A stretch of DNA of 62,436 nucleotides, the filler included, from Sanchytrium tribonematis (taxonomy: Eukaryota): NCBI GenBank assembly GCA_018985235.1. It is 6 parts of 6 records of this genome, joined end to end, with 100 filler letters (N's around TTAATTAATTAA, not from the genome) between each part and the next. Parts side by side here need not be neighbours in the genome. Positions count along the whole stretch, not along the records: positions 1 to 30,760 come from JADGIG010000052.1; positions 30,861 to 37,110 come from JADGIG010000539.1; positions 37,211 to 43,450 come from JADGIG010000540.1; 3 more parts are not named here. One strand, given 5' to 3'. Every line of letters begins with the position of its first letter. The first letter of the stretch is position 1. Of the stretch, positions 14 through 43,450 are shown piece by piece. The notes below the pieces were generated by a model. It was not told the DNA's origin and did no database searches. It worked only from the letters and a program-made list of their open reading frames with translations. The translations under genes and the position numbers were made by a program.

Positions 14-1472
14 TTATTTTCTAGCATAGTATTGGTCCAAGTATTTTGGAGATATACGATTTAGCATTTCTTTTGGGAAAATTCTTAGTAATGACCAAGC
101 CAAATCCAAACTTTCTACGATGGTTCTACTTTCATATGGACCTTGTGCAATAAATGTTTTCTCGAATTTCTCCAAGAATTCAAGCGATAATTTGTCTTCT
201 TGATTCAAAGCTTCTTCACCTACCACAGCCTTCATAGCTGCTGCGTCTCTACCGATGGCATATTTGGCATACAATTGATTTGAAACATCGCCATGGTCTG
301 CCCGAGTCATTCCTGAATTAAAAATAAAAACCTTCTCCAATAGCAGATTTCATTAATCGACTAAGACTAGGAAGCACATTGATAGGCGGGTAAATTTGTC
401 TGTTGTGTAGCTGCCTATCGACGTAAACTTGTCCTTCAGTAATATAACCCGTTAAATCTGGAATAGGATGTGTAATATCGTCATTAGGCATAGTCAGAAT
501 TGGAATTTGAGTAATAGATCCATTTCTCCCTTCAACACGACCTGCTCTCTCATAAATAGTAGCCAAATCAGTGTACATGTAACCTGGATATCCTCGACGA
601 CCCGGTACTTCTTCACGGGCAGCACTAACCTCTCTCAAGGCATCTGCATAAGAAGACATGTCAGTCAAGATAACAAGCACGTGCTTTTCCAATTGATATG
701 CATAATATTCTGCAGTTGTTAAAGCTAGTCTCGGAGTAATAATACGTTCGATAGTAGGATCATTTGCCAAATTAAGAAATAAAGTAACTCGCTCCAAAGA
801 ACCATTTTCTTCGAAATCTTGCTTAAAAAATCTTGCAGTTTCCATATTGACACCCATAGCAGCAAAAACAATTGCAAAATTATCCTCGTGTCCATCTAAC
901 ACATCTTTCTTCTGCACCAAACCAGCTTGTCTACAAATTTGAGCAGCAATCTCGTTATGAGGTAGACCAGCAGCTGAAAAGATTGGAATTTTTTGCCCAC
1001 GAGCAATACTGTTCATTGTATCAATAGCACTAATACCAGTTTGGATCATTTCTTCTGGGTAAATTCTAGAATATGGATTAATAGGTTGCCCCATAATATC
1101 TAAATGGTCATCAGCAAATATTTGTGGCCCATTATCCAAAGGTTTACCACTGCCATTAAGAACACGCCCCAACATGTCTTCACTGACGGGCATTTTCAGA
1201 ACATCTCCTGTAAATGTAGAATTACAATGTCTGGAATCAATTCCAGTGGTGCCTTCAAAAACTTGAACAATCGCTTTTTTACCTTGAACATCCAAAACTT
1301 GTCCTGTTCTTTTGCTTCCATCTGCCAAAGTCAGCTCAACAATTTCGCTAAACTTGGCAAACCGAACGTTGTCCATAATTACTAAAGGACCATTGACGCC
1401 GCTAATGGTTATATAATTAAGCCTTGGGTTTTTAATGTAATCTCTTGTAACAGCTGCAATTCGTGGATCCAT
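14..1472 (-). CDS. VMA2: V-type ATPase subunit B; join(1472..332,312..14), 479 aa
   Basis: Motifs [32 protein letters not shown] and [17 protein letters not shown]; removing 313-331 restores the conserved KSAIGEGMTRxDH. Confidence 0.98.
313..331 (-). other. 19-nt GT-AG intron (gtttttatttttaattcag), phase 1
   Basis: Excision gives GAA G|GA ATG ACT, joining two ORFs into the conserved V-ATPase B sequence. Confidence 0.95.
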
Positions 1473-1938
1473 TTCTTAAAGTCAGAAGGAGTGTTTGAAA
1501 TTTTATATTTTTCATCGATTTATTCTAGGATCTTTGAATAATTAAAGCTCTCGAATTTTATAATTCACCTAGCGCAATATGTGGCTCTAATACCAATTGT
1601 CCCTCTTTTTCTAGAAAACAAGCTCATAAGGTAAATTTAACTATTGCCAAATTAAGAAGAAATTAAATGAGCATTATTTTTATTTTCAACGACTTAATGT
1701 TTTTGTTTCTATTGAATATAATTAATAAATTACCGCTATTAGATAATTAATATTGGTGAGACTCCACAAATAAATTTTTTAATAGGAATTTATTGATTCA
1801 CAAATTTTCCGCGTGCTTCGGAAGAACAATTATTAATGCTAATGAAATAAATTTATCAGCATATCAATTAACGCCTCAAATTCAATTTACCTAACTCGGG
1901 CTAAAGCGACGTCGTTTACAGTTTTGGAATTTTTTTAA

Positions 1939-4900
1939 ATGTTATCATTGAAAATCAACTTGACTACTCAAGGTAAGATAAAAACGATGCAATTTCCTGG
2001 AAACATAGCTATACATACTATCGTCCAGAAGATTAAGGAAGAGACTCAAATGGGAGAGTCGGCCGATCACGCCTTATATGATCCAGAGCACAAAAGGTGG
2101 TTGAAAATGGAAAAGACTTTATTTTATTATGATATACCTAGTAACCATGTTCTAGAATTTAAAAAGAAACATCGTCCTTTAAAATTAAAAATGTTGGATG
2201 GAACCCTGAAAACTGTCTTAATTGATGAAAGTTTATCAGTGCAGCAATTGGTGGATTTCTGTTGTGACAAGCTACAAATCAATAATCCTGAAGAATTTTC
2301 TCTAGGTATGGAAGTCGAAGTCGATGAGAAAGAGAAACAGAAGAAGGAAAAAGATAAGGAGCTCTCAAGTTTGACCGACCAGGCATTCAGATGGCTTAAT
2401 CCTGATCAAGCATTATGTGAGCAAAATATTACTAATGAGGATGTATTAGTTTTGAAAAAGAAGTTTTATTTTAGTGATCAAAATGTAGATCGTAATGACC
2501 CTGTTCAATTGAATTTAGTCTACACACAAGCCAGGAATCAAATTTTGTCAGAGAAACATCCTTGCACATTTGAGGAGGCCATCCAATTTGCTGCGATTCA
2601 ATGCCAAGTTCAATTTGGTAATAATGATCCAACAAAACATAAACCAGGTTTCTTGGAAGTGAAAGATTTTCTTCCACCTGAGTATCAAAGATCCAAAGAT
2701 GTAGAAAAAAGAGTTTTTGCTGAACATTCTAAACTTGGTGGTATGAATGATTTAAATGCAAAATATCGATACGTGCAACTCAGTAGATCTTTAAGAACTT
2801 ATGGTGTTACTTTTTATTTGGTAAAGGAAAAGACAAAGAAAAAAGGTGTTTTAGAACCAGTTTTGCTTGGTATCACGAAAGAAAAGATTATGAGGTTTGA
2901 CGTGAAGACTAAAGAAGTTGTTCATAGTTGGGCGTTAACCACATTAAGACGATGGGCCGCTACTCCAAATTCTTTGACTCTTGATTTTGGAGACCACAGC
3001 GATGCTTATTATACAGTTCAGACTGCTGAAGGAGATGTCATTTCTCAATTAATTGGTGGATACATCGACATCATTTTAAAGAAGAGAAGAGACGGAGAGC
3101 GAAAAGTAGAAGATGGCGCTGAAGAAATGGCAATGACTGAATCTATCCAGAGAGCACCTAAAATGGAAACTGCTAGTTTGATGGCTTTTAAGGAACAGAA
3201 GGCTCAAATGAAATCATTTGGAAATGGTCAACAATCTATGAAACCGAGCCAGACAGTTGCTCAGGTTGTAAAGATTGGTTTTGCGACTCATCAGGTGAGC
3301 GGTAATGTCATGAAGAAAAATGAAACACAAAAAATCGAAATGTCAAGTTTCGATGCCGTTCAACAACATCTACAATCTGGATTTGCAGCTATAAATTCTG
3401 CTTGTGTTGAACTACAGTATCCAAGTGCGATTCAACCTTTAGATACTGAGACACATCCAGAGGCATCTGTGTGGAAGAAAGAGGCTTGGTTTAAACATGC
3501 TGCTAATATAAATTCTAGGATGGTAAAACATGTGGAGAGCACCTCAATTTTGTTAAACCAGGCCATTTTGAATAAGGAAAGTCTAGATCTGGATCTTGTA
3601 GGTGGATCTATTTACACATTATCAAGTAATCTATCACAATTGGCAGCCGAAGCGAAAATGATCGGATGTTTTGCTGAAGATCAAGATCAGGCAGATAGAA
3701 TCTTAGATTCAACTCGAAGAATTGGTGCATCCACCGCTGAATGGCTTTTGGCTTGTCAAAACGCGCTAGAGGCTGGTCTGACCCCTCCTGAATTGTACAA
3801 AGCATCTCAATCCCTTGTAGATACAGTAGATGAGCTAATTAACTTATTAGGTACTAAAAACAGTAGTGATGAAGATAGACAATACGTTCTAAGTGCAGCT
3901 CAGAATATCACTGTTGAATTTTCTCATTTAATCGAGGAAAGCAGTCAATTTAAGGGTGAGCTCAGCTCTGTGAACAAAACAAAGTTTGAGAATGCGCTTC
4001 TTGATTTAAAAACAGCGTGTGCTCATGTTTTGGCTGTAGCAAAGTCTGTTTTGCCTATGTTGGACGTTACAGAATGTACCACACAAGCAATATATGCTGC
4101 TAAAAATGCATTAGAGTCCTCTCAAGCTATGTCTGGATTTCTGGACGACAATGAAAATGAGGGATTTGCGTACGCTTGTCAACAGCTCAACGGGAATATT
4201 GAAAGATTAGTGTCATTGTTGGATGGATCTCAGGAAAAGAACGTCGGAAATTTGAGTGAAAAAGTACAAAAAGTTCTGTCGTTGACAACTGAAGCAAATC
4301 AAGTTTCCTATGACGCTGATGCACTATTGGCCAAAATTAAGGAGATAACAGTAGCCTCAGCTGAATTATCGGCAGTCATTACAGCTTCAATTAACCAAAG
4401 TAATGATCCAAAAGAGATTGAAAGATTAAAGGCCGCTGCTAAAGATGCTGCAAAGAAGACTAATGATCTAGTTCAAGAAACAAGAAAGTGGACTAAAGAC
4501 CCTGATAATGATGATCTAAGAATGGGAGTCTTAAAGAGTGTTGGAAAACTGCAACTTGCGATGAAAAGTGTAAGTGGTGATACTAGAGAAAACGCTATCG
4601 AAAATTTACTTGAAATGGCTCAGAAGTCAATCTTAAATGTTTCCGGTTTGCTCAACGCCTGCTCTGGAGCTGCTTTGTCAAATAACAATCCAGCAGGCCA
4701 AAAACAATTGATGCAGGCAGCTAGAAAAACATTTATTCAAAATACTGATCTAGCAGGTTCAGTCGTGGAACTAAAAGAAGACATTAAGAATGTTCAAGCC
4801 CAATTGAAATTAATCAATGCTGCTACAGATTCCGTAAAAACCAATGAAAATTTACTTAAAGCAGTCAAATTTGCCAAAGATTTTATTGCAGATCCAAGTA

Positions 4901-7900
4901 TTAAAAAACAAGTGTCGGATGGTAATGACAGAGTTATTGAGAGTATGGAGAAAGTGAAAAGTGCTCTTGCAACAATCAGTTGCTTTGGTGATATTGGAGG
5001 GCCAGAATATGTACTTGATAGTATCTTGGACGGCTTAAAGAAGGGACAGAAGGAGATTAATGAAGTTAATTCAGATTTAACACTTCTTGACAAAGAAAAT
5101 GTTTTGGGAGATATTCGACAACTCCAAGATGATCTGAAACAAAATGCGAAAGCCGCATTTCAAGAACTTTTGAAAATCAAAAACTTTTCTCAAGAAGGCA
5201 ATGATCAAGGGGTCGGAGGAAGCGCACAAGATATGACATCTTATTTAAGCCGAGTAACCAATGCAGGTAAGCAAGTTGCTGCTATTTTAGGACTTGAGAA
5301 ATGGAACGAAGATACCGATGAACAGCAAGCCCAGTTGATTTCAAATCTTGCTAAATCTTACCTGCCATTGATCGCTATTGTTGAAAAAGCTAGAAATGCT
5401 TTAGGTAAAAAGGGAGACAGGAAAGAAATGGAAGATGATATCGCTAAATTCCAAAATGCTTTGACCGCATTAATGGCATCTCTGCCTGAACAAAAAGAAT
5501 TAGAAAAAGTTATCAATCAGGTGTCTGAAGTTTTGTCTAGACCGGTAGCTAATAATTCGCAAGAGCCAGAAGAAGCTAAAAACAAATTGTTCCAAAGTTC
5601 TTCTCAAATGTCGAATGCTTATAATCAATTGGTCAACGCCCACAAACTTCCACATAATGAGTTGCTCAAAATTATGAATGATATGACGAAACATCATTCC
5701 GAAATTGTCTCATCCGCATTAGCCATAAGTAATCAGCTTGATAATGAGGAAGATCGCCAAAGAATTCGCGCCTTATTATCCGAAATATCGGAGTCCAGCT
5801 CCTCTGTATTAGGATTTTCAAAGAGAGCTTCATCTGTCGTTTTAGACGATGTACAGCTCAAAGATACGATGTTAGGAACCTCTCAAAAATTGGGAACCGC
5901 GATTCAAGAGTTACTTCAAATTGTTTCTCAAGTTGGAAACGAGGACGAACAAATGGCTAAAATCAATATTAAGAAAGCTGTTGAGAAGGGTCAAGATATA
6001 ATTAAAAATTGCAATGTTCCTCCAAAGATTATTGACTCATATGACAAAATTTCCGATGATGTCGCTGGTGCACTTGATAAGGTACTTGCTGCATTAGACA
6101 AGCTAAGAGGCGACTTAAATAAGAATACTTTGGAAGCAGTCAGTACCGAAGCTGAGAAGGCCACTATTGAATTTGCATCAGCTTTGGCCAAGGCCCTTTA
6201 TGTTGTTGCATTGAACGACTTTGATACGGTTCAAGGAACTCCTGGATTTGTAGACTGTGCAGTTCAAGAAGCTGGGTATGAAAGATTAAAAGAAAGAGTT
6301 GAACAACTTAAGAAGTCCAAAACGCCTCAAGAAGTTGCGCAAGTTACTGCTGACATTGCAAAAATAACAAACAGCGTAATGTTGCTTTGTAAAGAGCTAG
6401 CTGCAGATAAAACAGGTAAAGTAAGTCCAACAGATCAGCAGTATTTTATGCAATATGCCCAATACATTGGACAAAGTGTTCAGGGCTTTGTTGGTGCAGT
6501 AAAACTATTTAGCACCGCCATGAATGATGAAAATAGACAACAAACTATGGCTCATGCAAATGGAATTGCCGAGGGAATCAAGGGCATTGTACAGTATCTC
6601 AAAGAGCCTCAATTTAATGGTACTCCCACTCAATTTGGTTCAAAAGCCTTGGTCATGCAAAAACCTATTCAAGACTCTGCCAAGAAGTTTTTCAGAGCTT
6701 TGGATGGTAGTGGGAACGCCTTGACAATTTTAAGTCTTAACCCTCAAAACACGTCTATTTTGGGTCAAATTGCAACCAATGCTAAAGTAATGAATGATTC
6801 CAAAAACGGTATTCTCAAATCATTAGAAGAACAAAGTCCAGGGAAAAAGAAATTGGAACAGATTGCTGATAAGTTGCAAAACACTCTGATTGATTTGGAC
6901 GCAGCTTTATTAAAATGTGCAACAGAAGGTTTAACCAAGTCTCCTGACGCTCAGGTAAATCAAACAATGGATGCCGCAGACATGGTTGCGACCGCATTAA
7001 ACGATTTAGATCACTTGAATTTAGAACCTGCGTACATATCCAAACAGGCACTTCAACTCAACGATTTACACGATATGATTATGAAACAAATGCTCGCAGA
7101 AGCAAGTATTCGAGACAACAAGGCTACCCAATGTGATATTGTTGGTTTGCTAAAAGATTTAACTGAAGCATTTTTGGACTTGCAATTGGCTTTGAAAGAT
7201 ATGAATTCATCAGAAATTGCTGAGAAGAGAGAAAAAGTGTACGATAAATTAGATGACATAAAAGGGTATTGGGTTCAATCCGAATCTCTGGATAAACTTG
7301 TGGAAAGTGCTAAATCTCAAATCTCTGCAATTCATGGAAATATTTTAAAGACATATCCTACCTCATCTGGTGCAATTGTTCCATTGGCCGCATTTTTAAA
7401 TGACTGTAGAGAACTTATTTTAAGTATCGGGTCATTTGCTGGTGTTATCGGTAAAGAAAATCCTGATTTTGAAAGCAAGATTCCTGCTATACCCAGCAAG
7501 CTACAAAGCATGCAGCCTAGTCTTTGCATTGCATTAAAAGTTGCTGAAGTTTCTACTAAAAACGAGATCGACTCAAATTTGAAAGCACTTGTCTTGGGGC
7601 TTTGCACATATTTAGATATGATGAGAAATGCTTTTATGAGACCAGCTGATGGTAGTGCTAAATCTTCATTGAGTAGCGCTAGTAGAGATGTGTCAACAAG
7701 AGTAGGGGCATTGATAAACAGTGTCAAAAATGCCAACCCTGGGCTTTCTCAAACTGAGAATGCAGTTTCAAAGATTAATGATGACGTTATGGCTGGAATT
7801 GAAAGTACAATGGTATTCGCTGAAGCAGGCCAATTAGAACCTTCTTCTGGTGACAAACCATTCAAAGAATATCATGGAGATATTCAGGTTGGTGTTAAGA

Positions 7901-9562
7901 GGTTGATTGAAGATGTGAAAGGTATTGTTTCAGCCACTGCACAGTCCATGAATAATCTTGGAGATTTCAGTGGAAAGAGTGCGAAGCATTTGGAAGAAGT
8001 GTGGGCTTTGTCAAAAAGTGCAATCGCAAGTGTGACTTCTGCTGATAAGCTTACCCAAATTGAATTATTAAAATCTGCAGCGGCCATGTCTCAGAGTATG
8101 AATGAATTGATCAGCACTGCAATGCAAGTGTGTGGCAAACCACAAAATGATCCTGAATTCGCAACTGTTCTGCCTCAAGCTGCAAAGAAAGCCGCACAAC
8201 AAATTGCAGTATTTTACAAAGCTGTTGAGAGTGTGAGCGATGAAAAAACTAGAGCTTTGAAAGCTATTACAGCTGTAATGGGAGATTTGAAATTCCAGGA
8301 AGATGCGTTCTTAAGTGACCAAAAAGCTGAAGGGTATATTTTATTTATATAGTACTGCGTTACCAGATGATGTTCTTAAATGCTCCAGAGATGTTGCTGC
8401 TAGTGTAGCCGCAATGATGTCCACATTTGGAAAGAAAGATGAGTTAGTCTTCAAACTAAACGACTCTAAGAAATTGGTAGATGAAATGATCAGAACAACT
8501 AGAGCTTCCATTGAAAATGCTCCTGATGCTCAGAAAAACAAAATGAAAGTTAACATTCAGTCATTCTTTGAAAATTTTGGAGTATTGCTAACTACTCTCA
8601 ACGATCCAAATGCAGATAAATCTAAAATGGAAGAAGCCGCCCGAAGAGTTGGCGCTTCTATTAGTGGTATTTCTGATGTTGCTAAGCAATTAACACCTGA
8701 TGGCTATGTCGACCAGGATGATCCAAACTATATTGCTGAGCAAGAATTAATATCAGCTGCCAATGCAATTGACATTGCGTCAAAGAAATTAGCTAAGATG
8801 ACATTTGCTCCACGAAAAGAAGGTGAAGATATGACATTTGAAGAGGCATGTGCAGAAATTGCAAGAGCTGTTATTGGCGCTTCATCTGCCTTGATTAAAG
8901 CTGCTACCAGTGTTCAAAGAGAAATTGGTTCAAAAGGTCACAAACTTAAGAAAGAAAATGAAATGTTCTTCAGTGATGGTACTTGGAGTGATGGACTGGT
9001 GAGTGCTGCTAAAGTTGTTGTAGCAGCTGTAGGTGATCTCGTAACTCTTGTCAATGAGGCATCAAAAGGTAAAATTCAACCTGAAAAGATTGTAGTTGTT
9101 GCAAGAAGTATCGCAAGTAGCTGTGCACATTTGATTGCATCCGCAAGTGTCAAAGTGGACTTGGAAAGTCAGGCTCAATTGAGATTGAAAGCTGCTGGTA
9201 AACAAGTTACTGCTGCGGTCGAAAACTTGGTGAATACTGTTGAAGAAAAAGTCCAACCTGACGACAATGCTGTATTCAATGATGCAAAGGCCAGCGGTGT
9301 CAAGGGCAGAATCGGAGAAATGGATGCCCAAACTGAAATTTTGAGAATGGAGAAAGAATTAGAAAAAGCCAGAAATAGGTTGGCTGGAATGAGAAAAGAT
9401 AAATATACAAAGCCAGAAGATATTAAAACAGGAACTATCAAATCTGCTTCAAAGGAGACCCCACCATCTTCTAGTAGCACTTTTGCAATGAACCGTGATT
9501 CTGCCACCAGGCTCAGTCAAATTGGAAGTAAGAGCACTATGATGAAACCACAAAAGCCATAA
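1939..9562 (+). CDS. TLN: Talin (FERM head, helical rod, I/LWEQ actin-binding domain, dimerisation helix); join(1939..8333,8353..9562), 2534 aa
   Basis: KKFYFSDQNVDRNDPVQLNLVY, RSLRTYGVTFYLVKEK, WAATPNSLTLDFGD, ISQLIGGYIDIILKK; C-terminal DGTWSDGLVSAAKVV and EMDAQTEILRMEKELEKARNRL. Confidence 0.96.
8334..8352 (+). other. 19-nt GT-AG intron (gtatattttatttatatag), phase 2
   Basis: Excision gives GAA GG|T ACT GCG, fusing the 2137-aa and 415-aa ORFs into one full-length talin. Confidence 0.93.
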
Positions 9563-9822
9563 TAAAATTTATTTTGTTTCCATTTCCTCGCAGAAAATAA
9601 ATCACTGACTTTGTTGGATGACTACTTGGTATATTTGTCAAATTTTTTAAGGGTGATCTGTTTTCATCTAAACTTATCCATCCCCTCTAAACTGCCCTTT
9701 TACCATCTAAAATGACGCAAACCCACGTCTAAATTGGAGAATTACGACAACTATATTGCTAATGACGCATCAAAATGTTACATGTGGCAGTATTTAATGA
9801 TTGACCTCCCCAAAAATAAATC

Positions 9823-11029
9823 ATGAAGGGGCATTATATGAAATCGATATCTCCTAAATTAATGTCAATAGAATCACCTGACTCGTTTTGGGAGCGAGTA
9901 CTCAACTCCGAGCCCATATCTAATAAGAAACTAAAAGAATCAGCACGAAAAGGCATTCCTCAAGAATATAGAAGAAAAATATGGATAAAATTGGGAAGTA
10001 ATTTTTCAATTCCATTGAAACCAAACGAGAATATATTAAAATGCTTGGGAACAAAATTTCCTCATATCGAGTATGCACCATATCTTAAAAATCTGATTTA
10101 TGTTATGAGAACAATTTTAGACCCTGGTGAGACTGCGAGTCTCATCGGGTCCATGATTATGGATGACAAACTTTTAGTGAATTCCAATTATACTCAAATG
10201 ATTAATCTTGCTGAAAGCATGAACAAAAATGGCGGAAATTGTGAAAGAATGATGGACTCATTTTTTAACGATCTTTCAATAGAATTAAGATGTAGACTGA
10301 TAGACTGCTTAATAGTGGAGGGGTTTAAAATATCAGTTAAATTCTGCCTGTCGGCGTTGTCATTCCCTGAACTGCCTGATGACCTTATATTTATGAAAAA
10401 AGTATTCTCATTTTCTTTTTCTAGAAAGAAATTAGACTCTGCAAAAACGTCTCCATATTCCCCAGAAATTATCGGTCATGATTTTCCAAATGATGCCGAT
10501 CTTACAGAAGAAGACTGGTTGTTTATCTGGAAACACATTCCTCAAAGAGATATCCAGAGTCATTTAAATTTATGTTTTTCTTCAAATGAACACGGATATA
10601 ACATTTCATCTCTTTACAGATTGTTGGACGATAATTCTCCATTCATATTATTTATTACAACACTAGATCACGAAGTCTTTGGAGTTTTTGTTTCTAGCCC
10701 TGTAGATTTTGGCCAAGATTGTGGAAATGGTGATACACTTTTATTTCAAATACAACCAAGTCACCATTGCTATAAAGTTAACAAGGATAAAAGTGAAATT
10801 GACAAATGTTTTATTGCCAATAAGAAGGAAATAATTGTTGGTTCTTCAAAGTACATTTTATTAATTTAGACATGGTCAAGCCCTATGGATACACGAATCT
10901 TTGACATTTGGATATACTGCATCTTCCAATACATTTATGAGTCCGCCTTTGGTCTCCTCGAAGCAACACGCCAACCACGTTGGTCACAAATTTGAAATTG
11001 CGAATTTAAAAATTTATGTTCTAGAATAA
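9823..11029 (+). CDS. Degenerate TBC (RabGAP-like) + TLDc domain protein (TBC1D24-like); join(9823..10850,10870..11029), 395 aa
   Basis: LKESARKGIPQEYRRKIW (TBC start); FSSNEHGYNISSLY, EVFGVF, GNGDTLLF (TLDc); spliced exon supplies ALWIHESLTFGYTASSNTFMSPPL...FEIANLKIY. Confidence 0.85.
10851..10869 (+). other. 19-nt GT-AG intron (gtacattttattaatttag), phase 2
   Basis: Excision gives TCA AA|A CAT GGT and opens the missing TLDc C-terminus to TAA at 11027-11029. Confidence 0.92.
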
Positions 11030-18611: not shown

Positions 18612-18633
18612 TTATAAAAATAAATTATTTAAT

Positions 18634-21600: not shown

Positions 21601-23590
21601 AGCTAATATGTAGTATGGCTTATTTCTTTGAGTTTCAAGTGCGGTTGATTTGCTAAATAAGAATAGATTACCATATTAAATATTCATGCTGAACGGCTTC
21701 ATCCTCCACAATACTACACATTGTTGAAACACCCGTTCCTGTATCGCCTTCTATGGTTAAAGCAATGTGGGAATGACCTAGAACAGAGTGTTTCCGGATA
21801 GCATCTCTAATTATCTCAATTTCATTTTTTCTACCAACAAAGGAAAAATTTGAAGTCGATTCTACAAGTGTTTCTTTAATTCTAATGGGTCTATAAACAT
21901 TAATTGGGTAGCTTTTTCCCTTTACCTTCTGGGGCTCCATACCTTCAAACTCAATGTTGTCACACAACTCTTTTGTTCTGTCGTCACAAAGCATTGATCT
22001 GTGAGCACTCTTCAAAAACATCAGTCTTGCTGCCATATTTATGGAATCTCCCATTAAAGCATATTCTGTACGTAAAGAATTTCCTACTCCACCAATACTG
22101 ATGACTCCAGTTGTAATTCCCATCGAGTAATTCTCAAATATATCTGCAAATGCAGTATTAATTTCAAGAGCAGCACGAATTGCCTGGCTTGCATCGTTTT
22201 TGTGAGCTAAAGGTGGCAATCCGAAGAAAACTAAAATTATCGCACCTTTATCATCCACATGAAATTGCCTCAAAATTCCTTCGTGTTTGCTTATACTGAC
22301 TTGAACTACAGTCAATGCCTTTTGCAAAAGTGCAACAATAGAAGTAATAATATTTTGTTTGTCTTGCTCTAAAGGTTGTGCGTCTGCTAATGAGCTCTCT
22401 ATTGTATGCTCACATTCTTTCATTTTCAATGATATCCGTTCTTTTTCTTCGGTGTTGGAGCTTTCGTCATATCTAGCTTTCAAATTTAGTAGATTCGTTC
22501 TTGCATTTTTCTCATCTTCGCTTAATTTAGCAACTTGCTTTTCTATATCTTCTAAAGCATCTAGAGGAATAGAACTAATTTTTATGAATATTGTGGTGAC
22601 TTGACGCAATTCGTTAATGGACATCAAATGTTGTACACCTTGATGTAGTTGAATTGGACTAGAGTGTTGCAAATCAGATTCTAATTTGTACAAAGCACTC
22701 TGATTGACATATAGTTTGATTCTATCGTGAAAATCTTTGCTGTAAGTTGACTGATTAATCTCCCACATGTTGTAGAACTCATTCTCGTCTTCCATTACTT
22801 TCTTAGTTTTTGGAACTATTGTCATTCTAGAAAGACCATTCAAAATAACACAAGTCTTATCAAAGGACTCCATTTTCAAGCCATTGATTTCAACCACTTC
22901 TCCGAAATATCGAAAAGCTTTTTGACTTAAAGCCAATTGTCCAGCCTTCGCAAGATCGAGTACTTGGGAAATTTGCTCTATTGCATCACCGATGCAAACA
23001 TGTTCCCATCTCCCAGGGCTTCCACCCACGTGAACATCAAATATTTGGCCCGCTCCGATCCCCAGATGAATACGCAAAGCTCTTTGTTCCGTCCCTGATC
23101 CCTCCTCATTTGGAATTTCAACATTATAAGGATTAAGTAGATCCAAAAGCTCCAAACAGCAGAGACAAGCTTTGAGAACCAATTCGCCATATCTCTTAAG
23201 CTTGTCCTTTTTACTCTCATTTTCTTTATTAGGGGGCGATTTCCAATAAAATATCACAGCGTCCCCCACAAATTTTACAATATCACCTCCATGTATACAA
23301 ATCGTGTGTATAATTTTATCTAAATATTCTTTCATAACTCTGGCCAAAATTTCAACGCCCTCAGGCCCTCTTTCACCAAGAGTTGAAGCCAATGCAGAGT
23401 AACCACTAACATCACACATGACAATTACTGCAAATCCTTCCAATGCTTTAGGTTGAAGTTCTGACTTGTCTTGACAATGTTCAAGAACATGTTTAGAGAC
23501 AAAATTAGGAAGGAGTTGTTCAAAAGGAGTAATATCATCATATTCTATTGGAGTTAATTGAAGATCAAATCCGTACTCATTATTTTCCAT
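18634..23590 (-). CDS. Soluble adenylyl cyclase (ADCY10-like: two class III cyclase domains, STAND/AAA-like domain, TPR-like tail); join(23590..21672,21652..18634), 1645 aa
   Basis: CDVSGYSAL, GGDIVKFVGDA, RIHLGIGAG (C1); ELRQVTTIF, VDDKG, FGLPPLAH, EYALMGDSINMAARLM, KVKGK (C2); FVGRKNE, ECQWMD, SGGNPLF, FDRL. Confidence 0.9.
21653..21671 (-). other. 19-nt GT-AG intron (gtaatctattcttatttag), phase 2
   Basis: Excision gives ATA TG|C AAA TCA and an open frame (CKSTALETQRNKPYYILADIVRDL) into the 986-aa ORF. Confidence 0.93.
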
Positions 23591-30860: not shown

Positions 30861-30873
30861 TGGATTAAAGAGA

Positions 30874-31203: not shown

Positions 31204-31320
31204 AATAAATCAAATAATTTATAGCATTCTTATTGCAAAACCTCATCAAACTGACGACACACATTTGATTGGTCACTTATTAATCATTGTTCAATAAAAG
31301 GCTATATCGGATTAAAGAGA

Positions 31321-31709: not shown

Positions 31710-33542
31710 TCAATTCTTGACAGTTGAGTCTTTCTGTTGTTCCCCATACTGCTGCAATCTTTGTTCCCAAGTTGCCACATTCAAATTCAAATCAACACTC
31801 ATCTCATAAATTAATTCTAACAATTCGAGAGATTCTTCATTTTCCACCCCACTTATCGCAACATGATATGCATCCAGATAATGTCCGCACAATTTCATGC
31901 TATTTGCATATAAATAATAATATCTAGCACTTGGCTGCAAATCAACTAAAATGGAATAAAAATGTTTTGATTTTTCAAACAAGGCTTGTTCCTGGTAATA
32001 TTCTCCCAAATAATTTAATACCCCAATATGACAAGGATCATACCGATATGCCTCAAGCACCATCTGGACATTGTTTAATTTCACACCCAAGTCAAATAAA
32101 ATCGAGGCATCTGTTGGACACAAAGAGAGTAAAATATTGCCGTATTCTTTCAATTTTGTGGGATCACAGTGCTTCACTAAATGATACATGGCCTCATGGT
32201 TCAAATGATGAATCTGGAATAACTTTTCAAACCATTTAAATCCTTCAGATTGTTTTGTGAATGCCAAATTATGCAATGCGGGTATACAAAGTGCATCACT
32301 GTTAAGCGCACGTTGAAAATAGTCCATCGCTTTTAATAATTCTCCTTTTTCGTAGCAAATACAGCCCATATTTACCAGAGCCTTGGAATTGTATTTATCT
32401 TTAGAAAGAACCATTGAGCAGTATTTCTCAGCATTCTGTAAATCTTTTTGCATTAAATATATAAATGAAAGATTAATAGAAGCAGCGCTCTTTAGCCTTT
32501 GTTCTTTCAGCTCAAATGATTTGTATAATTCAATAGCATCTTGCGATTTCTTTAAAATGAGCAATTGCCAGCATTTTAAAAGTTCCAAAGCATTTGTTAA
32601 ATAATTGTGGGGACTATTTTTAACAATATCTATGCAACCATCGAGACATTCTAACAATAAATAGTCCAAGTTGGGAATTAAACTCAACTGTAATTTCACT
32701 GCAAATAATACTAATTTCTCAAATTGGTTGCATTTGGATTGACAATAATCACTTAAATCATCGTTTTTGTTTATAAGCAACCGATTAAATTCCAAATCAG
32801 GATCTGTTTGAACTAATATTTCCTTGAAAAGTGATTTGATTTTAGCATGAGCATTGGTTTTGGAATAACAAATAAATAGCTCATATGCAGCTTGTATATC
32901 AAATTTAAGAGATAAAACAGACTGGTAATCTTCAATAGCTTTGTCTAATTGGTTTAAATGAATTCGATTTTGAGCAATACTTTTCAAGCAACAAATTTTA
33001 TATTCAGTTATTTGTAATTTGTCATGAGCCATTTGATAATACTTGACACTTTTTAAGTAGTCTTGCATTTTATAAAAATTGTGACCAATGTTCATTAGAA
33101 ATCGATCTGGAAGCGGCCCGTATTTGTTTTGAACAATATCTTGATAAACACTGTTTGATTCTGAGTACTCATGTACATATTCGTATTGAATAGCCAATTG
33201 TAAGAGCACTTGTAATATCAACTCATTTGTAGGTGCTTTGAGTTTCCCCATTTCTTGAATCAAATCATACGCAGTCTTCGCTTTCTTTAAATCTTGTGAT
33301 ATATACAACTCATTTAAAATCATTTGAATGTCTGATTCTAGCTTTGAATATGGGTCTATTTCTTTTATAGGGCTAGATACTCTGGATTGTCTCTGAGATT
33401 GAAATCCTGCTCCTTTCAAGGCTGTAGTGGGCCTACCAGTTGTTATTTTGCCTGATCTTCTAGATGATACTCCAAAGTCACTACTTGTAGCACTGGCTTG
33501 TTTATTGGCAGTTTTAATTCTTCCAAATTGAGAATAGTCCAT
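31710..33542 (-). CDS. IFT88: Intraflagellar transport protein 88 (divergent, shortened TPR protein)
   Basis: GRPTTALKGAGF, SAASINLSFIY, DKYNSKALVNMGC...ALNSDALCIPALHNL, EAYRYDPCHIGVLNYLG match IFT88 motifs. Confidence 0.8.
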   Translation of the reverse strand: MDYSQFGRIKTANKQASATSSDFGVSSRRSGKITTGRPTTALKGAGFQSQRQSRVSSPIKEIDPYSKLESDIQMILNELYISQDLKKAKTAYDLIQEMGKLKAPTNELILQVLLQLAIQYEYVHEYSESNSVYQDIVQNKYGPLPDRFLMNIGHNFYKMQDYLKSVKYYQMAHDKLQITEYKICCLKSIAQNRIHLNQLDKAIEDYQSVLSLKFDIQAAYELFICYSKTNAHAKIKSLFKEILVQTDPDLEFNRLLINKNDDLSDYCQSKCNQFEKLVLFAVKLQLSLIPNLDYLLLECLDGCIDIVKNSPHNYLTNALELLKCWQLLILKKSQDAIELYKSFELKEQRLKSAASINLSFIYLMQKDLQNAEKYCSMVLSKDKYNSKALVNMGCICYEKGELLKAMDYFQRALNSDALCIPALHNLAFTKQSEGFKWFEKLFQIHHLNHEAMYHLVKHCDPTKLKEYGNILLSLCPTDASILFDLGVKLNNVQMVLEAYRYDPCHIGVLNYLGEYYQEQALFEKSKHFYSILVDLQPSARYYYLYANSMKLCGHYLDAYHVAISGVENEESLELLELIYEMSVDLNLNVATWEQRLQQYGEQQKDSTVKN

Positions 33543-35800: not shown

Positions 35801-36301
35801 TGAAACTGCTTATTTCAAGTGGCGTATGCTGATTCATTTGCCCTTTGCCTGAATTTTTCTAAGACTAAACTTATTGTTTCTCTCTTGAGTTACTGGATTA
35901 AAAGTCATTGCTAGAAGTGTTGTAGAGTTAATTCTATTGTTAGTACTTAGGATTGTCCAATGCAGGGACTCCATTTTTCTCCTATTGCCCTCTTGATGGG
36001 GAACCAAAAATTCCGTATATTCACATTGTTTGTTTGGTTCCTGGATCTACTGCTACCAGATTATCATGAGATAGTGTGACGATGGTGTCAACCATGTGAT
36101 TTAGAACGTAGATGAGAGCTTTCCCATTTGGTTTCCTCCTGTAAATGATGCTGTCTGTTTTCTCAATGTGTGGATTACGTAATTGGATCTTCTGGTGAAG
36201 TTCGAGATCTTTGTTTGTTCCAACTGACAGTCGATGCTTCGGCGACCTTTTAATTGAACGGATTTCATTTGGGACTCTTCTTTATCTGCGTGCTGTAAAG
36301 G

Positions 36302-37010
36302 TTATTTGGTTTTACTTTGCTCTTCGGCTTGCATTGCTTCAGTTTGGGACCTGGTGATGTAGTTCAAATCCAATGTGGCCTCATAGCCATATCTGCTCAA
36401 CGCATCAGCTGCTCCATTTTGATGACCTATTACGTATGCAATTGTCAGATCGTGTTGCTGAAGTTTACACACCCAGCTTGCCAATTTCCCTGTTTTCTGG
36501 CTGTCGTTGGGGTTTTGGACACTTTTTCTTGTGAAGGAGAAACCCATCCGAGCTAAATGCAAACCCTAAGAAATTGACTTTTATCATACCAAATTTGCAT
36601 TTCTTTGCACAAAGCGTTAGCCCGAATTCTTTCAATTTCTTGAGCACCTTTCCCAGGCTCTTCATCAGAGACTCGAGTGTGTGACCAAATATTAGGAAGG
36701 CGTCCAAGTAAACCAGAATTTCAGTTCCAATCATTTCTTTAAATATTTCATCCATTAGACGCTGAAATGATGCTGGTGCTGTTGACAATCCAAAGGGTAT
36801 ACCTATAAACTCAAACAGCCCAAAAGGTGTCACAAAAGCTGTCTTTTCTCTGTCCTTATCAGCCAAAGGTCTCTGCCAGTATCCAGATTTTAGATCCAGT
36901 GATATGAAGAATTTTGCTCCATCAAGGCTATTTATGAGGCTTTGGAGGTTTGAGATTGGTGGTTTGTAGTTAAAGCAAAACCGTACAGATCCATCATGCT
37001 TTGATAGCAT
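36302..37010 (-). mobile_element. Degenerate Ty3/gypsy pol fragment (RT + end of RNase H)
   Basis: DGSVRFC, LDLKSGYWQ, KTAFVTPFGLFEF, PFGL, YLDA (dead YxDD), then frameshifted GKLASW...NGAADALSR; internal deletions. Confidence 0.88.
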
Positions 37011-37210
37011 AACACGGAGTATTACTGTAAAATATGTCCTCCAGTAAAAATGTTATAAAGAAACCCCCAGGCCCTCTGCAGCCCGCAAACCTAGCAGAAA
37101 TGGTTGACCCNNNNNNNNNNNNNNNNNNNNNNNNNNNNNNNNNNNNNNNNNNNNTTAATTAATTAANNNNNNNNNNNNNNNNNNNNNNNNNNNNNNNNNN
37201 NNNNNNNNNN

Positions 37211-39954
37211 CAATCTTATCCTGAATAATGGGCTCGGCATCAAAAAAGAGCTGCAAGACATCAGAAATTATGGTCATTAATCCAGGAGAGTCTTTTTCTC
37301 GCACTTCATAAACACTTTGTTATAGTAAACTACCTTTTTTTTAAATGTATTTTAGCAAATATATATTCTTGAGTCAAATATGCTATTATAAACATAGCAT
37401 CAGTTATAAATGCAAATAGTCCGAAAGACCCCCCGACAGTTCCGTAATAAACAGGTCTACCATTAAAGATTGGGTGTGACAAATTCTCCGGTCTCCTAAA
37501 TAACGTATTCATAGTATCGCCACCACAATGTCCTTGAAAAATTTTCAAGTATGCATTGTTTGACATTTCTAGCATGTAAACATTATTTCTGTCATCACAA
37601 ACAAGCTGGTGATTCTCATCTATCATTTGAGCTGTAGTCAACCATTTTGGTTTTCTATCCCTATACATTTGTTCTGCATTACCATTTTTTAAATCTAATC
37701 GATAAATAAAAATACTTCGGATCATGTCACCAATAAGAATGTAATTTTGAAAGGTATCCATAGCGACAATATGCGTGAAGAAATCAGATTCGAATATTAT
37801 TTTCTTGTTTAGTATTATCAAAAATTTTGTTTGTAACGCCACGACATAAAAAGAATCAATTTTGCGAATGATGATGGCTTCACTAGGTATTTCCATCTCT
37901 GAAATATCCAATTTTTTTTCAATTTCTTCAAATTTTATAAATTGCAAAATATGCTGATCGTTGTGTGTAGAGCCAATTGTGATAATACCATCGTATATTT
38001 TAAAGCAGCTGATAGTCGAATAAAAATTGTGCTCGTATATCACTTCGAAATTAGCCTTATCCATAAAAACTAGAATATAATTTGACTTGAAGTCGAGATT
38101 TTGCAAATCTCCATTTTTGCTAAATACCCCGACAATCATTTGCCCAAGTTCTTGACAGTACAAGCAATTTTTATAGACGTAATGTTTGTGAAGGTGTCGT
38201 TTTTTGATTTTCCCTAGATCCCCAAAAGCAATCTCTCTCCTAGTAGTGAAAAATAACATGTCATCTATTGCTGTACAATTGGTAATGTTTTTAGATAATT
38301 TAATTAAGGATTTATCATAAATATAAGAGGAATCGCTTAAAACAAACAAATGGTTCTTGACAAACGATACTTGAACAGGAGTGTTTCCCACTGGCAAACG
38401 CTCTAAAATATCATCTTTTAATATCCCCAAGGTACCATTTATAAACCCGACATACAATTCACCATTATCGAAATATAGTGAGTGAGCGTCTGGTATTGAT
38501 AATTTCATGATTTCTTGAAAATTTAAGTCTGTCTTATAAAGATCATCTGTACTAAAAATCAAGTTGTTTTCGTCGCTGGTGCAACAGCTAAATGGTACGT
38601 TAGTGGTATATACAAGATTAAAAGTGGTGTCAAGTTTAAAAACAACATAATCGTTACCAATACCACCAAAAACATACAAATACTTATTCCTTGTACAGCA
38701 TTGAACATTTATCTGCAATATTTTAGTTCTCTTAGCATGTAATACCTCATAAACACCTGTCGGAACAACTTGAATAACTCGTTCCCCAATCTTAGCACAA
38801 AAAATAGTAGGCTCATTAAATTCCAAATCATGTGAGATTTGATTTAATTCTTCGTTCTTCAATTGTAACACTTTGGTCGCGTTGTTATAGCTTAAAAGCA
38901 AAAGATCATCGAGACTGCTTATTCGAGTTGGAATGTATGTAGAGGACAGTTGGCCGTATAGATTAATTGGAATTCCTTTCTGAATAACTCCCATACAACT
39001 TGGCTGTACATTGCTTGTACATAAGATCAATTCTCCAACTATCAAATTATTCAACGGTGCTAATGATGGGATTTCATCAACAATCTCAAAATGACTAGCT
39101 GCAATACCTGGCAAGTCGACTTGTGCAGCCAAATCTTGTAATTTACATAGAAAAGAATCATGAAAATGACTTCCAACGAATATTAAGTCCTGAAATAAAG
39201 TTAATTTTGTGCATATAGTGAATTTTGTCAAATATTCAACTGTAAAATCATTTTCATACATTTTTAGCGTAAAGTACTCACCCTCGAATGTGCAAAATAT
39301 AGCCTTTTGTATTATGTCATTAGATCGTTTTTTAAGCGGTAAGAATAATAAATCTTGCACATAATGTTTAAATGGTTTTGAAACTTTAATATCGGGTCCA
39401 AGTAGACTAACATTGCCGTCGAACAATATCACGGATTTCGAATTCGGGACGGCATAGATCTTCAGATCCTCTTGGCCCTTTAAATCCATAAGTAATGACT
39501 TGTAGGGTTTTAAGTCTTTATCACATTTATAATATTCAATTCCATTTCTACTAAGGAGGCAGATGTCATTATTTCCACACCAAACGCCATCGATCATTTC
39601 GCTCACAATGTTTCTGCTAAATTTAATTTCGTATTCGTTCATGACAATAATTCGCGTTTTGCTAATAAATACAAGAGAGTCTTTGATCACCACGACTCTA
39701 TCGTAAATTTGATCAAGTTCGATAGTTTCAGTGTCTAATATGCTGCAATAATGTCTGTTAAGTAATCCAAAAACTTGATTTTTATATACTACAAGCTGAC
39801 GATACGCTAGGTAAATTGTTTTGATGACATTAAATTGAGTATCTCTTATTTGTAAATGCGTTGAAAATGCAATGTACAAATTCCCGTCAAATGATATGCT
39901 ATCTCTCACACTTGTGCCATATTCTAATGTTTTTTGAAGCAAAAACGGTTTCAT
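37211..39954 (-). CDS. DDB1: DDB1-like triple beta-propeller protein; join(39954..37334,37314..<37211), 3' truncated
   Basis: IFVGSHFHDS, EIPSLAPL, VIQVVPTGV, PVGNTPV, ILIGDMIRSI, RDRKPKWLT, YGTVGGSFG; spliced tail IISDVLQLFFD resembles IDGDLIESFLD. RSE1/CPSF1 paralogs not formally excluded. Confidence 0.72.
37315..37333 (-). other. 19-nt GT-AG intron (gtagtttactataacaaag), phase 2, AAG acceptor
   Basis: Excision gives AG|T GTT TAT and a frame open to the contig end encoding a DDB1-like C-terminal helix. Confidence 0.8.
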
Positions 39955-40118: not shown

Positions 40119-43100
40119 ATGGAATCTGTTGCTGATAGATTATACGTGTTGAGTGAGTTTGGAGGCAAGAACTTACGCGTACTGTATTCTCACATCAAAT
40201 TATACAATTTCTTATCTAATCCAACGGAACAAGATACTTTATTTGGAGATTCTAGCATACCATTAAAGTCTGGACTGCAATTACTTATAGAACCAAATTA
40301 TCAACCGCTTTATAAAGCACTTTTAAAAAAGTTTCCAGATATCAGAGACATCCCTAAGAATACCACCTCTCTTTTAGAACAAAACCAAAAAATATTTGTA
40401 GACAGCTTACAAGGAATGTATAATAGCATGTCTTCGTTTTTGCAATTCCAAAATGATACACTAGAAGTTCTGAAAATTGCTGATAAAATCCAGTACTTAA
40501 ATTATGATGTTTCTCCGGACATATGTATGATGATTCTTGATGTGGTGAGACAAATTCACCACGGGCTTCACCTCATAAGTCTTTTGGGCGAACGGAAAAA
40601 GGTGATTGTGAGTGTATATGCAAAAGCTTATTTCCTCGAAAATGGAATTAATGAGCCACTGTTTAGAACCCTTGCCGACTTGTGCCTCAATAGTGATAAA
40701 ATTCAGCAATACATTGTGGAACTTTTTGCCCCATATAGTGGGGTAGTTCAAATGGCAATTGCTTCATTACAACAAGATTTCCCAAGTGGTGCCGTCATTG
40801 CTGCTGATACTCTTCGAAAAACAAAATCCCTCAGATTTAGTGGAAGTTTTAAAATGGGTAATACCAATGAACCATCTTACGATGACAAATTATTTAGGAT
40901 GTTGTATTATATTAATCGCAACGCTAGTAATGTGGTCGCTGCCACTTTATCATGCCCGAATGATATTTTGAAGGATGATAAGATAACACACGTCTCCACT
41001 TATTCAATCAATATGAATGACAAAATATATCTAGGAGGAGATACTTATCTTGAAGGCCTTAATGAGGTGGAACAAATAGGTCGCATTTCTAATAAGAGCA
41101 ATAAGATAGTCAAGCAATTGATTGAGGCTGTTCAAAATACTGCTACTCGCCAATCTCTTCATCTGGATCGAAGAGAATCAGTCTCGAAATTGATAGAAGA
41201 ATGTATATCAACTGTCGAAAGTCAAGGAGGATTTGTTGCTACCAAACTTCCAACGATATTATCGTTGCTCAGTCTAGGTTATTATGAATTAATACATTAT
41301 TTTCGAGTTGTAGAGAGATCGAGTCCAAGAAGAACCAAAACTGCAAACAACACTTCCACGAGTTGGTCTGGTGTATTTCTTTTAAAAAATGTCATAAAAT
41401 TGAGAGAAATTGTTTTGGAAAATAAGTCTCTTATTACAAAGTATTACATTAATTTATTGAAAATAACTTATGCAAATGGGTTAGATGAATACCTCAATAT
41501 ACTAGCAGGTAGTCCCGAACCAGATGGTATCAAAAACATGTGGAATGAAATTCACTTGATGCTCAAGTCTGCTTCTGAAACCCAGCTATCAAAATTTACG
41601 GATTTAAGGCAAACTTGGAGAAGATTGCAATTATATTTCGCTACTCAAAGTCCTCCGTCTCAGAACTCAACACCTTATTACATGTCCAAACTTATGAACG
41701 AAGTTTTTTTCAGATCCTTTTTTATTGACAACCTAGAAACTGAAATGGATAAAATTTGTCCGATCCAGGAACTCTACTTCTTCAGATACGCATTAATGGA
41801 TCATGTAACATCATTTACAAGTATTATTGGTCACGAGGACCAGTTTGTTCGTTTATCTGAATCTATAAGTTCTTGTATTGATATTGGCAGATATTTCCTC
41901 AAGGTTGTAAAGTATGAAAACAAGGTGAGTGGTCAAAATGAAAGAATTATTCAATTTGTCAAACAGTATGTTGAGGTGGGCACTCATCAACTGACAGACT
42001 ACACAGCGTTCTTAATCCATGGACTTAATCTAGAATTTGCACGACTATTTTTGTTAAGCCACAGTTTCGGTCAACAAACAATGTTGACGGAAGAAGACAA
42101 AAAGGCGATGGTCATGCCAGGATTTGAGTCTATGCTGCAGCATAAAAATGCTACACTTCTTAAATGGGCAGCACAACAATCTATGATAAAAGGGCTCTTA
42201 AATGGCTTTGTTGACATTAAAATTGGAAAAACAAGATTCTCACCGATTAATGAATTCATTAAGAGTTATAACAAGATTGTAAGTGGAGTTTTGAAGACAA
42301 GCATCATTGATTACGGGGCCAATTCAAAAGAAAATTCAAGCCCATATAGTGTATATTCTAAAGATTCTCCAATAATGCAACAAAGTGGATTTATGATTAA
42401 AAGACCCACTTTATTCTTGATTGGTTTGTATGGATATTTTGAGAATTTAAAAAGACTGTTTGTTTACGTAAAATACGACTATCTTTATCACGAAGTCACG
42501 AAGTTACTAAAAGACCAAAGCAATCTACAAGCAGCGACCGTAGAATTGTCCCAAGCACAGGCCGACACAAAGAAAAAAGTGGGTAAAAAAGCTCCTGTTG
42601 ACAATGACAAGTTGCTCGTAACCATTGTAATCAATTGGCTTATGGAAATTATTGGATCAAAGTCTGTTGCACAGAACTTTGGAATTTCTCCAATTAGAAA
42701 GTCCTTAGAAAGTTATGGTCAAGACCCATTTCCTTTGCATCATTTTATTTGCTACAAGGAATTCTATGCATTGGCTGAGTGCATTGGCCCGAATGCTAGA
42801 GTCTTATTAAGAGAAAAAATCTATTCTGTTGCTAAAATGATATTTGATGACATTTTCATTGCATGCAAACCTATTTATGAGAATGTAGATGCTGAAAAAT
42901 CGGATAAATCAGATCAAAAAATTATGGATTTCATTAGTAAGACTAGAAGCGCACAAGAGTTTAATGATTGGATGCTAAATTTTGGAACATTAGGGATGCT
43001 GTTTGAACTTGAGGATCTTTTAAGCGAAGCATTTAGTGACGCAATGCATGCCAATTCCTCATACTTAAGATCGGTGGTTGAACATGGCGATGCAACCTTA

Positions 43101-43450
43101 AATACGAAAATTCCTGATTTGGTAGAAATGATTACGAGCAGTGGTATCAAAAGCAAAAATGCCAAATCCAAATTCCAGATTTCTGCTCAAATTGATATTA
43201 AAAAATTCACAAACACTTTGGTGATCTTCATGGTTAGTCTCGCCCTGGACGAGACAATTATGTATTATCCATTTCACGGAAGTAATTTGATTTTATTTAG
43301 CTTTTACCAGAAATATTCAGTCAATACCATATGCCATTGCTATTATTTTGAGAGATTTGAGCATTTCGGTCGATCCTACAAAGTGGGAAAAAACCTTTGA
43401 AGTTGTGTGCCAGCAATTTCTAGAGCAATCTTGTCTTTACCTAATGAAAT
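40119..43450 (+). CDS. NCKAP1: NCKAP1/Nap1 (HEM family) SCAR/WAVE complex subunit; join(40119..43281,43301..>43450), 3' truncated
   Basis: VADRLYVLSEFG, LYKALLKKFP, MPGFES, IKRPT, EFYALAECIGP; spliced tail YYPFHGTFTRNIQSIPYAI...QFLEQS parallels NCKAP1 NNIHC...EFLAL. Confidence 0.82.
43282..43300 (+). other. 19-nt GT-AG intron (gtaatttgattttatttag), phase 1
   Basis: Excision gives GGA A|CT TTT and a frame open to the contig end with NCKAP1-like sequence. Confidence 0.88.

What the first reader, a model, noticed from the sequence alone, without database searches (positions are those of the whole stretch)
313..43300. Fixed-length 19-nt spliceosomal introns with a position-locked branch A in a fungal-type genome
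Seen: six of six split conserved genes on two contigs are repaired by a GT-AG intron of exactly 19 nt (313-331, 8334-8352, 10851-10869, 21653-21671, 37315-37333, 43282-43300). All have T at position 12 and A at position 14 (6 nt from the 3' end), with no extended donor consensus and no room for a separate pyrimidine tract. Known: similar sizes occur in chlorarachniophyte nucleomorphs (~18-21 nt) and heterotrich ciliates (15-16 nt, also with an A at -6); microsporidian introns are somewhat longer. Inference: a ruler-type, probably reduced spliceosome evolved independently in an opisthokont nuclear genome. Standard gene finders would miss these introns.
Basis: partly seen in the sequence, partly recalled or inferred. 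Interest (0 to 1): 0.95.

Follow-up and report, generated by a model that had tools for sequence, protein, structure and literature searches.

The report
19-base introns in a sanchytrid fungus
Six conserved genes of a sanchytrid (an early-branching parasitic fungus) are each interrupted by a 19-base piece that is likely spliced out as an intron; these would be shorter than the fungal introns I found described, and public gene models cut the proteins short at them.

Summary
Observation confirmed. Six 19-nt GT-AG segments with T12/A14 lie at the stated coordinates. Removing them restores V-ATPase B, talin and NCKAP1 in register with homologs, and restores the TLDc frame; the cyclase and DDB1 cases rest on frame continuity alone. 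An unbiased scan gives 6 of 8 AT-rich frame-repairing segments at 19 nt. The genome groups with Amoeboradix gromovi (Sanchytriomycota). Six related records break at the same V-ATPase site, and one with DNA has a different 19-mer with the same T12/A14. Two corrections. (1) Length is not fixed across the clade: orthologous introns are inferred at 20, 23 and 24 nt, and the A stays 6 nt from the 3' end. The putative branch point is therefore 3'-anchored. (2) The relative's published annotation shows a largely complete spliceosome (18 of 24 terms found); Slu7 and Prp18 had no hit. No RNA was available, so splicing is inferred. Tiny introns are known in Stentor, mikrocytids, nucleomorphs and myxozoans. 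I found no report for sanchytrids in print, and the scan's earlier notes held none (only Rozella, 26-30 nt). Verdict: a new, independent member of a known kind; interest 0.68.

The parts
313..331 (-). 19-nt phase-1 intron in V-ATPase subunit B (gene 14-1472)
   Evidence: Best of all GT/GC-AG cuts against 8 homologs, no gap at the junction; same site broken in 6 related records; 19 nt in DNA of L001:1218-1236
8334..8352 (+). 19-nt phase-2 intron in talin (gene 1939-9562, 2534 aa spliced)
   Evidence: Only GT option up to 40 nt; exon 1 residue 261 of 271 matches talin-1 2157 and exon 2 residue 1 matches 2169, so the junction is in register with no gap
10851..10869 (+). 19-nt phase-2 intron in a TLDc-domain gene (about 9826-11029)
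   Evidence: Pfam TLD stops at profile position 123 of 170 at the break; exon 2 in the repaired frame matches Skywalker TLDc 143-172, E 0.001
21653..21671 (-). 19-nt phase-2 intron in a class III nucleotide cyclase gene (18634-23590, 1645 aa spliced)
   Evidence: Joins 639 and 1005 open codons; only GT option up to 40 nt; junction not tested against homologs
37315..37333 (-). 19-nt (alternatively 16-nt, 37315-37330) phase-2 intron in DDB1; gene runs off the contig piece
   Evidence: DDB1 identity; repair opens the frame to the end of the piece; exon 2 not confirmed by homology; weakest of the six
43282..43300 (+). 19-nt phase-1 intron in NCKAP1 (gene from 40119, runs off the contig piece)
   Evidence: 33.5 bits against 20.4 for the next of 31 cuts with a profile of 65 homologs; A. 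gromovi ortholog P0249 breaks at the same codon
58711..58729 (-). Candidate seventh 19-mer inside an open frame of a repeat-rich membrane-protein gene; unresolved
   Evidence: Highest profile score of all 328 non-intron 19-mers, but removal gives a stop after 3 codons while the unspliced frame runs 104 more codons

Best explanation
These are likely ordinary major-class (U2-type) spliceosomal introns that have shrunk to 19 nt in a sanchytrid fungus, and they are likely cut out through a lariat whose branch A sits 6 nt before the 3' end. Shown: GT and AG ends, a T-n-A-Y motif at -8 to -5, about 90% A+T inside, frame repair in six genes, and the same breaks in related genomes. Inferred: U2 snRNA pairs with T-n-A-Y and bulges the A; the AG five bases further on docks by proximity, which in yeast needs no Slu7 or Prp18; the donor is reduced to GT(A). 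The 5' part sets a lariat loop of 14 nt here and 15-19 nt in some relatives, so 19 nt is likely the mode near this spliceosome's steric floor and not an exact ruler. The spliceosome is inferred to be largely complete but remodelled, since human extracts need about 50 nt between donor and branch. Retention would truncate all six proteins (5 of 6 carry an in-frame stop, all shift the frame).
For: (sequence and unbiased length scan). Searches (junctions in register with homologs for V-ATPase B, NCKAP1, talin; TLDc); six related V-ATPase B records in a 100/100 clade with the window break at the same codon; L001 has a different 19-mer with T12/A14; in 5 of 5 protein-only cases where the -6 base is forced by the codons (P0249, P0246, P0248, P0008, P0009) it is A and -5 is a pyrimidine. 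(DNA contigs carry the inserts). (spliceosome and debranching enzyme annotated in A. gromovi). (Slu7/Prp18 dispensable at 7-9 nt), with no annotation hit for either.
Against: No transcript was seen. Two of six junctions lack a homology test, and DDB1 has a 16-nt alternative. T-n-A-Y 19-mers are not depleted from coding sequence (6 seen, 7.1 +/- 2.3 expected in 45 kb), so these signals alone do not define an intron. One top-scoring site (58711) seems better left unspliced. Lengths of 20 and 23 nt assume that the read-through stop is TAG; longer introns are not excluded there. P0243 and P0245 give no length. The sample is six introns in 45 kb, not a genome. The spliceosome inventory is for a relative, from an automatic annotation; its SF1 and U1-70K hits are weak (E 7e-10 and 9e-13).
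Confidence: 0.87

Rival explanations
1. A strict ruler: a strongly reduced spliceosome cuts at exactly 19 nt from the donor, with the A fixed at position 14.
For: 6 of 6 window introns, L001, and the two coronin introns of relatives fit 19 nt. Within this one genome no other length is required.
Against: 19 nt is excluded for P0249 (A. gromovi NCKAP1), P0246 and P0248, and position 14 cannot be A in P0248. A. gromovi seems to hold both a 19-nt and a 20-nt intron. 18 of 24 spliceosome terms were found in its annotation.
Confidence: 0.2
2. The introns are real but poorly spliced, as in microsporidia, and retention is the main or a regulated outcome.
For: Short Encephalitozoon introns are spliced at under 20%. 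Site 58711 looks like an intron but the unspliced frame is the longer one.
Against: They interrupt conserved genes such as V-ATPase B, with no stop-free read-through; nucleomorph 18-21-nt introns are mostly spliced at 80-100%.
Confidence: 0.2
3. Assembly or amplification artefacts, or pseudogene frameshifts.
For: Only one DNA run holds the stretch and it may be the source sample.
Against: An unrelated metagenome contig has a different 19-mer at the same codon; orthologs break at the same sites; both flanks stay open and conserved.
Confidence: 0.02
4. Non-spliceosomal removal (IRE1/HAC1-type endonuclease) or ribosomal bypass of 19 nt.
For: HAC1/XBP1-type introns of about 19-26 nt exist (recalled, no call).
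Against: 0 of 6 have the CNG-CNG boundary motif (motif recalled) and folds are weak and dissimilar, -1.7 to -6.0 kcal/mol. GT, AG and T-n-A-Y are kept at 19-24 nt.
Confidence: 0.02

Closest known systems
Stentor coeruleus 15/16-nt introns (PMC9505925, passages read)
   Same: GU(A) donor, U-rich body, branch A at position 10 of 15 and 11 of 16, which is 6 from the 3' end; most spliceosomal proteins kept.
   Different: Ciliate, 8806 introns; loop 10-11 nt. Here a fungus, about 0.13 introns per kb of coding sequence in this window, loop 14 nt, clade range 19-24 nt.
Chlorarachniophyte nucleomorph introns, 18-21 nt (PMC6009652, PMC10245619, passages read)
   Same: Same size class, GT-AG, AT-rich.
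   Different: Relic endosymbiont nucleus, intron-dense, no discernible branch A; here a main nuclear genome with a fixed T-n-A-Y.
Mikrocytos and Paramikrocytos 16/17-nt introns (PMC10245619, passages read)
   Same: Parasite nuclear genome, few introns, very narrow length.
   Different: Rhizarian; conserved intron sequence; only 17-19 spliceosomal proteins. The sanchytrid relative keeps many more.
Myxobolid myxozoan (median 22-27 nt) and Dicyema introns (PMC13644364, main text read)
   Same: Opisthokont parasites, donor reduced to GTa, U2AF kept.
   Different: Longer medians, and their putative branch A moves away from the AG as introns lengthen; here it stays at -6.
Microsporidian (about 25 nt) and Rozella (about 30 nt) introns (PMC6349667, passages read)
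   Same: Short introns in parasites related to fungi.
   Different: Longer; microsporidian ones keep conserved motifs and can be 5'-biased. Sanchytrids are sister to Blastocladiomycota (PMC8371127), so the shortening is a separate event.

Membership tests
U2-type spliceosomal intron | GT donor and AG acceptor | tested here: met
   6 of 6 in the window and L001
U2-type spliceosomal intron | Branch-site-like motif with an A near the 3' end | tested here: met
   T-8, A-6, Y-5 in 7 of 7 DNA-level introns; A-6 forced in 5 of 5 informative protein-only cases. Sequence level only.
U2-type spliceosomal intron | Removal restores a protein colinear with homologs | tested here: met
   Met for V-ATPase B, talin, NCKAP1 and TLDc; not shown for the cyclase or DDB1
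U2-type spliceosomal intron | Absent from mature mRNA, removed as a lariat | not testable with these tools
   No RNA run was available to lay on the window
U2-type spliceosomal intron | Organism encodes a major spliceosome | tested here: inconclusive
   No genome held for the window, no snRNA in the window; the relative A. gromovi has core proteins annotated
Tiny fixed-length intron systems (Stentor, Mikrocytos type) | All introns within 1-2 nt of one length | tested here: inconclusive
   Holds in this window (6 of 6); not across the clade (20, 23, 24 nt inferred); genome-wide untested
Tiny fixed-length intron systems (Stentor type) | Branch A 6 nt from the 3' end | tested here: met
   Stentor figures
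Strongly reduced spliceosome (mikrocytid, microsporidian type) | Only about 17-19 proteins kept | tested here: not met
   18 of 24 searched terms found in the A. gromovi annotation, plus Brr2, Prp4, Snu13, Sub2, U2AF1, U5-40K and cactin; relative only
U12-type intron | Extended conserved donor (recalled consensus with CC at +5/+6) | tested here: not met
   +5 is T or A in 7 of 7
IRE1-cleaved HAC1/XBP1-type intron | CNG-CNG loops in hairpins at both boundaries (recalled) | tested here: not met
   0 of 6

The most novel reading that the evidence does not exclude
Sanchytriomycota have the shortest modal introns of any fungus or animal. Nearly all introns in this genome are 19 nt, spliced by a spliceosome that keeps U1, U2AF and SF1 but has lost Slu7 and Prp18 because the 3' AG is hard-wired five bases behind the branch A, and whose U2/U6 geometry takes a 14-nt lariat loop. 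The genome would also break the rule that intron-poor genomes have strong splice signals, using length and AT content in their place.
Probability: 0.4. Interest if true: 0.85.

Novelty: new member of a known kind. Interest (0 to 1): 0.68.

Why it matters
How a spliceosome that needs about 50 nt between donor and branch in human extracts (PMC6692369) can work on a 14-nt loop is an open question, so far posed in ciliates, rhizarians and animal parasites. A fungal case whose sister phylum is well sequenced allows a direct comparison of U2, U6, SF3B1, Prp8, Cwc25 and Isy1, and swaps into yeast. In practice, sanchytrid proteins were predicted as plain ORFs on genomic contigs, so they are cut at these introns. 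Gene-loss and domain-loss claims for this phylum need rechecking with a minimum intron length of 10-15 nt.

Tried and rejected
No whole genome is held. No RNA holder listed. The V-ATPase B intron pattern found 1 locus in metagenome contigs, 0 in viral contigs and 0 in prokaryote genomes; coronin found no relative in viral contigs. Rfam gave 0 matches in the window. The DDB1 homolog search returned only itself. PDB searches with the short second exons of DDB1 and NCKAP1 gave no relevant hit. The Atlas did not answer for the cyclase. P0364, clustered with NCKAP1, is an unrelated 50-aa sequence. Longer introns (41-400 nt with fungal donors): 6 groups of candidates, five joining separate neighbouring ORFs and one in the retroelement remnant near 36,300; rejected. 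No 19-nt candidate extends the 5' end of a long ORF. Coronin insertions in the window are coding, not GT-AG. Cryptic-site avoidance was not seen (low power). Full-length coronin P0002 groups with two intron-broken relatives, but it may be a transcript or an intron loss, so it is not counted as splicing evidence.
Full report
What is in the window. It is six pieces joined by identical artificial spacers, 34.9% G+C. The six segments are at the stated places, 19 nt, GT...AG. They interrupt V-ATPase B, talin, a TLDc protein, a class III cyclase, DDB1 and NCKAP1. No genome is held and no RNA run was available, so all evidence is from DNA and protein comparison.

Is it more than chance? The motif alone is common: 334 GT..AG 19-mers, against 264-351 at lengths 12-40. 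I therefore scanned every GT-AG segment of 12-40 nt whose removal extends a frame of at least 100 codons by at least 10 codons. There are 32 such segments, 7 of them 19 nt; the next commonest length has 5. With at most 20% G+C inside there are 8: the six, a 16-nt alternative donor for DDB1, and a 12-mer at a retroelement end. For talin and the cyclase 19 nt is the only GT option up to 40 nt; the others have one or two alternatives. Candidates of 41-400 nt join separate neighbouring ORFs or lie in a retroelement remnant. Stop-free introns of 3n length cannot be seen this way.

Do the repairs fit homologs? V-ATPase B: the 19-nt cut scores best against 8 homologs and leaves no gap. Talin: exon 1 residue 261 of 271 matches talin-1 2157 and exon 2 residue 1 matches 2169, which leaves exactly one residue for the junction codon; the spliced length is 2534 aa. 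NCKAP1: 33.5 bits against 20.4 for the next of 31 cuts. TLDc: the Pfam match ends at position 123 of 170 at the break, and exon 2 matches Skywalker 143-172. The cyclase joins 639 and 1005 open codons but was not tested by homology. DDB1's second exon found no match. X1 may be the source sample.

Which organism? Coronin is closest, among named records, to Amoeboradix gromovi (65%). V-ATPase B falls in a 90% cluster with it and NCKAP1 is 63% identical. Trees give a 100/100 clade of the window, A. gromovi and unnamed environmental records. It is a sanchytrid (Sanchytriomycota, sister to Blastocladiomycota; PMC8371127 section 6), distinct from A. gromovi.

Relatives. All 6 other V-ATPase B records of the clade depart from the conserved sequence at the same glycine codon; two of them, P0124 and P0247, are near-identical. 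For P0124 the DNA (L001:1218-1236) is a 19-nt GT-AG segment of different sequence with T12 and A14. For the others I asked which lengths the read-through residues allow. P0248 needs 24 nt in frame. P0246 allows 23 nt or more and excludes 19. P0243 and P0245 stop at positions 12-14, so T12 is forced and the length is open. A. gromovi NCKAP1 allows 20 nt or more and excludes 19. Coronin of A. gromovi and of P0009 breaks at a site where the window has no intron and fits 19 nt (24 also allowed). At the shortest allowed length, -6 is forced to A and -5 to a pyrimidine in 5 of 5 informative cases, and -8 is forced to T in both P0249 and P0246. Position 14 cannot be A in P0248. So the A is anchored to the 3' end and the 5' part varies. 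These lengths are inferred from proteins; 20 and 23 assume a TAG stop.

Signals. In the 7 DNA-level introns: T-8, A-6 and Y-5 in 7 of 7, A+3 in 6 of 7, G+5 in 0 of 7, inner G+C under 10%. The window has 6 introns in 45.2 kb of coding sequence, 0.13 per kb, against 1.3 for Allomyces (PMC8476143). Intron-poor genomes usually have strong motifs (PMC6009652); these are weak. Against a simple code: T-n-A-Y 19-mers are not depleted in coding sequence (6 seen, 7.1 +/- 2.3 expected), and the site at 58711-58729 outscores all 328 non-intron 19-mers yet would truncate its gene.

Machinery. In the published eggNOG sheet for A. gromovi (PMC8371127, supplementary file 4; cut when stored, but after the second sheet begins), 18 of 24 KEGG terms had hits: U1-70K, U1A/U2B'', U2AF65, SF1-like, SF3a1-3, SF3B1, Prp8, Prp5, Prp2, Prp16/22 (two terms), Prp17, DBR1, Bud13, Isy1 and Cef1. 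Brr2, Prp4, U2AF35, Sub2, Snu13, U5-40K and cactin were seen by word search. No hit came for the numbers I recall as U1C, SF3B14, Slu7, Prp18, Smu1 and U11/U12-35K, nor for the names SLU7 and PRP18. Only about half of that proteome is annotated and it was predicted without introns, so absence is a lead. It fits, though: yeast needs no Slu7/Prp18 when branch and AG are 7-9 nt apart (PMC3683925, PMC10158995).

Mechanism. Likely U2-type splicing: weak GT(A) donor, U2 pairing on T-n-A-Y, branch at -6, AG docking by proximity, 14-nt lariat loop. Human extracts fail below about 50 nt from donor to branch (PMC6692369), so U1, U2/SF3b and U6 cannot sit as in the model systems; what has changed is unknown. 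Shown: ends, motif, frame repair, conservation. Inferred: excision, branch use, factor loss. Confidence 0.87.

Known and new. Tiny introns are described in Stentor (15/16 nt, branch A also 6 from the end), mikrocytids (16/17) and nucleomorphs (18-21), myxobolids and Dicyema (medians 22-27), microsporidia (about 25) and Rozella (about 30). Six searches naming sanchytrids or shortest fungal introns listed no paper on sanchytrid introns. The genome paper's main text has 'intron' only in a reference title and no 'splic'; PMC10459994 likewise. Its main supplementary PDF and one spreadsheet were too large to read and one PDF was a scan, and most subscription journals are not searched, so a mention may exist. 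What I saw: PMC13644364 main text; PMC8371127 section 6, passages and supplement searches; all other papers as passages only. Five of six first exons are in the public protein collection as complete truncated proteins. The scan's earlier notes held none on sanchytrids or this genome.

Verdict. Real, likely spliceosomal, an independent origin of tiny introns in Fungi and apparently unreported. The same architecture is known from Stentor, so it is a new member of a known kind. Interest 0.68; it would rise to about 0.85 with genome-wide and RNA confirmation and a true loss of Slu7/Prp18.

Noticed in passing
window 58711-58729 (-): A 19-mer with the best intron-like score lies in the open frame of a repeat-rich membrane-protein gene; splicing would drop the predicted membrane anchor. 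It may be a decoy or a secreted/anchored switch.
   Followed up: partly
all six introns: Five of six lie in the last quarter of the coding sequence (0.79-0.96; two genes are cut by contig ends), opposite to the 5' bias usual in intron-poor fungi (recalled). Small sample, noticed after the fact.
   Followed up: partly
window 46340-47758 (-): Coronin has no intron at the site where A. gromovi and P0009 are broken, so introns have been lost or gained within the clade.
   Followed up: partly
window 50862-56156 (-) and 36224-37052 (-): LTR-type retroelement sequence (RT, RNase H, integrase); its pol is split into two ORFs at 53367 by an in-frame stop; a second RT remnant lies near 36,500.
   Followed up: no
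window 1-20000 and 38500-39400: Run X1 contigs differ from the window at clustered single bases, which suggests two haplotypes or pooled individuals.
   Followed up: no
window 31710-33542 (-): TPR protein resembling IFT88 (recalled), 610 aa, shorter than usual; no intron repair found.
   Followed up: no
window 24965-26161 (-): DUF6625 protein, a family I recall mainly from bacteria; possible horizontal transfer.
   Followed up: no
window 30861-31644, 43551-46213, 47977-49779: Pairs of short lineage-specific paralogs with no Pfam match, several with hydrophobic N-termini.
   Followed up: no
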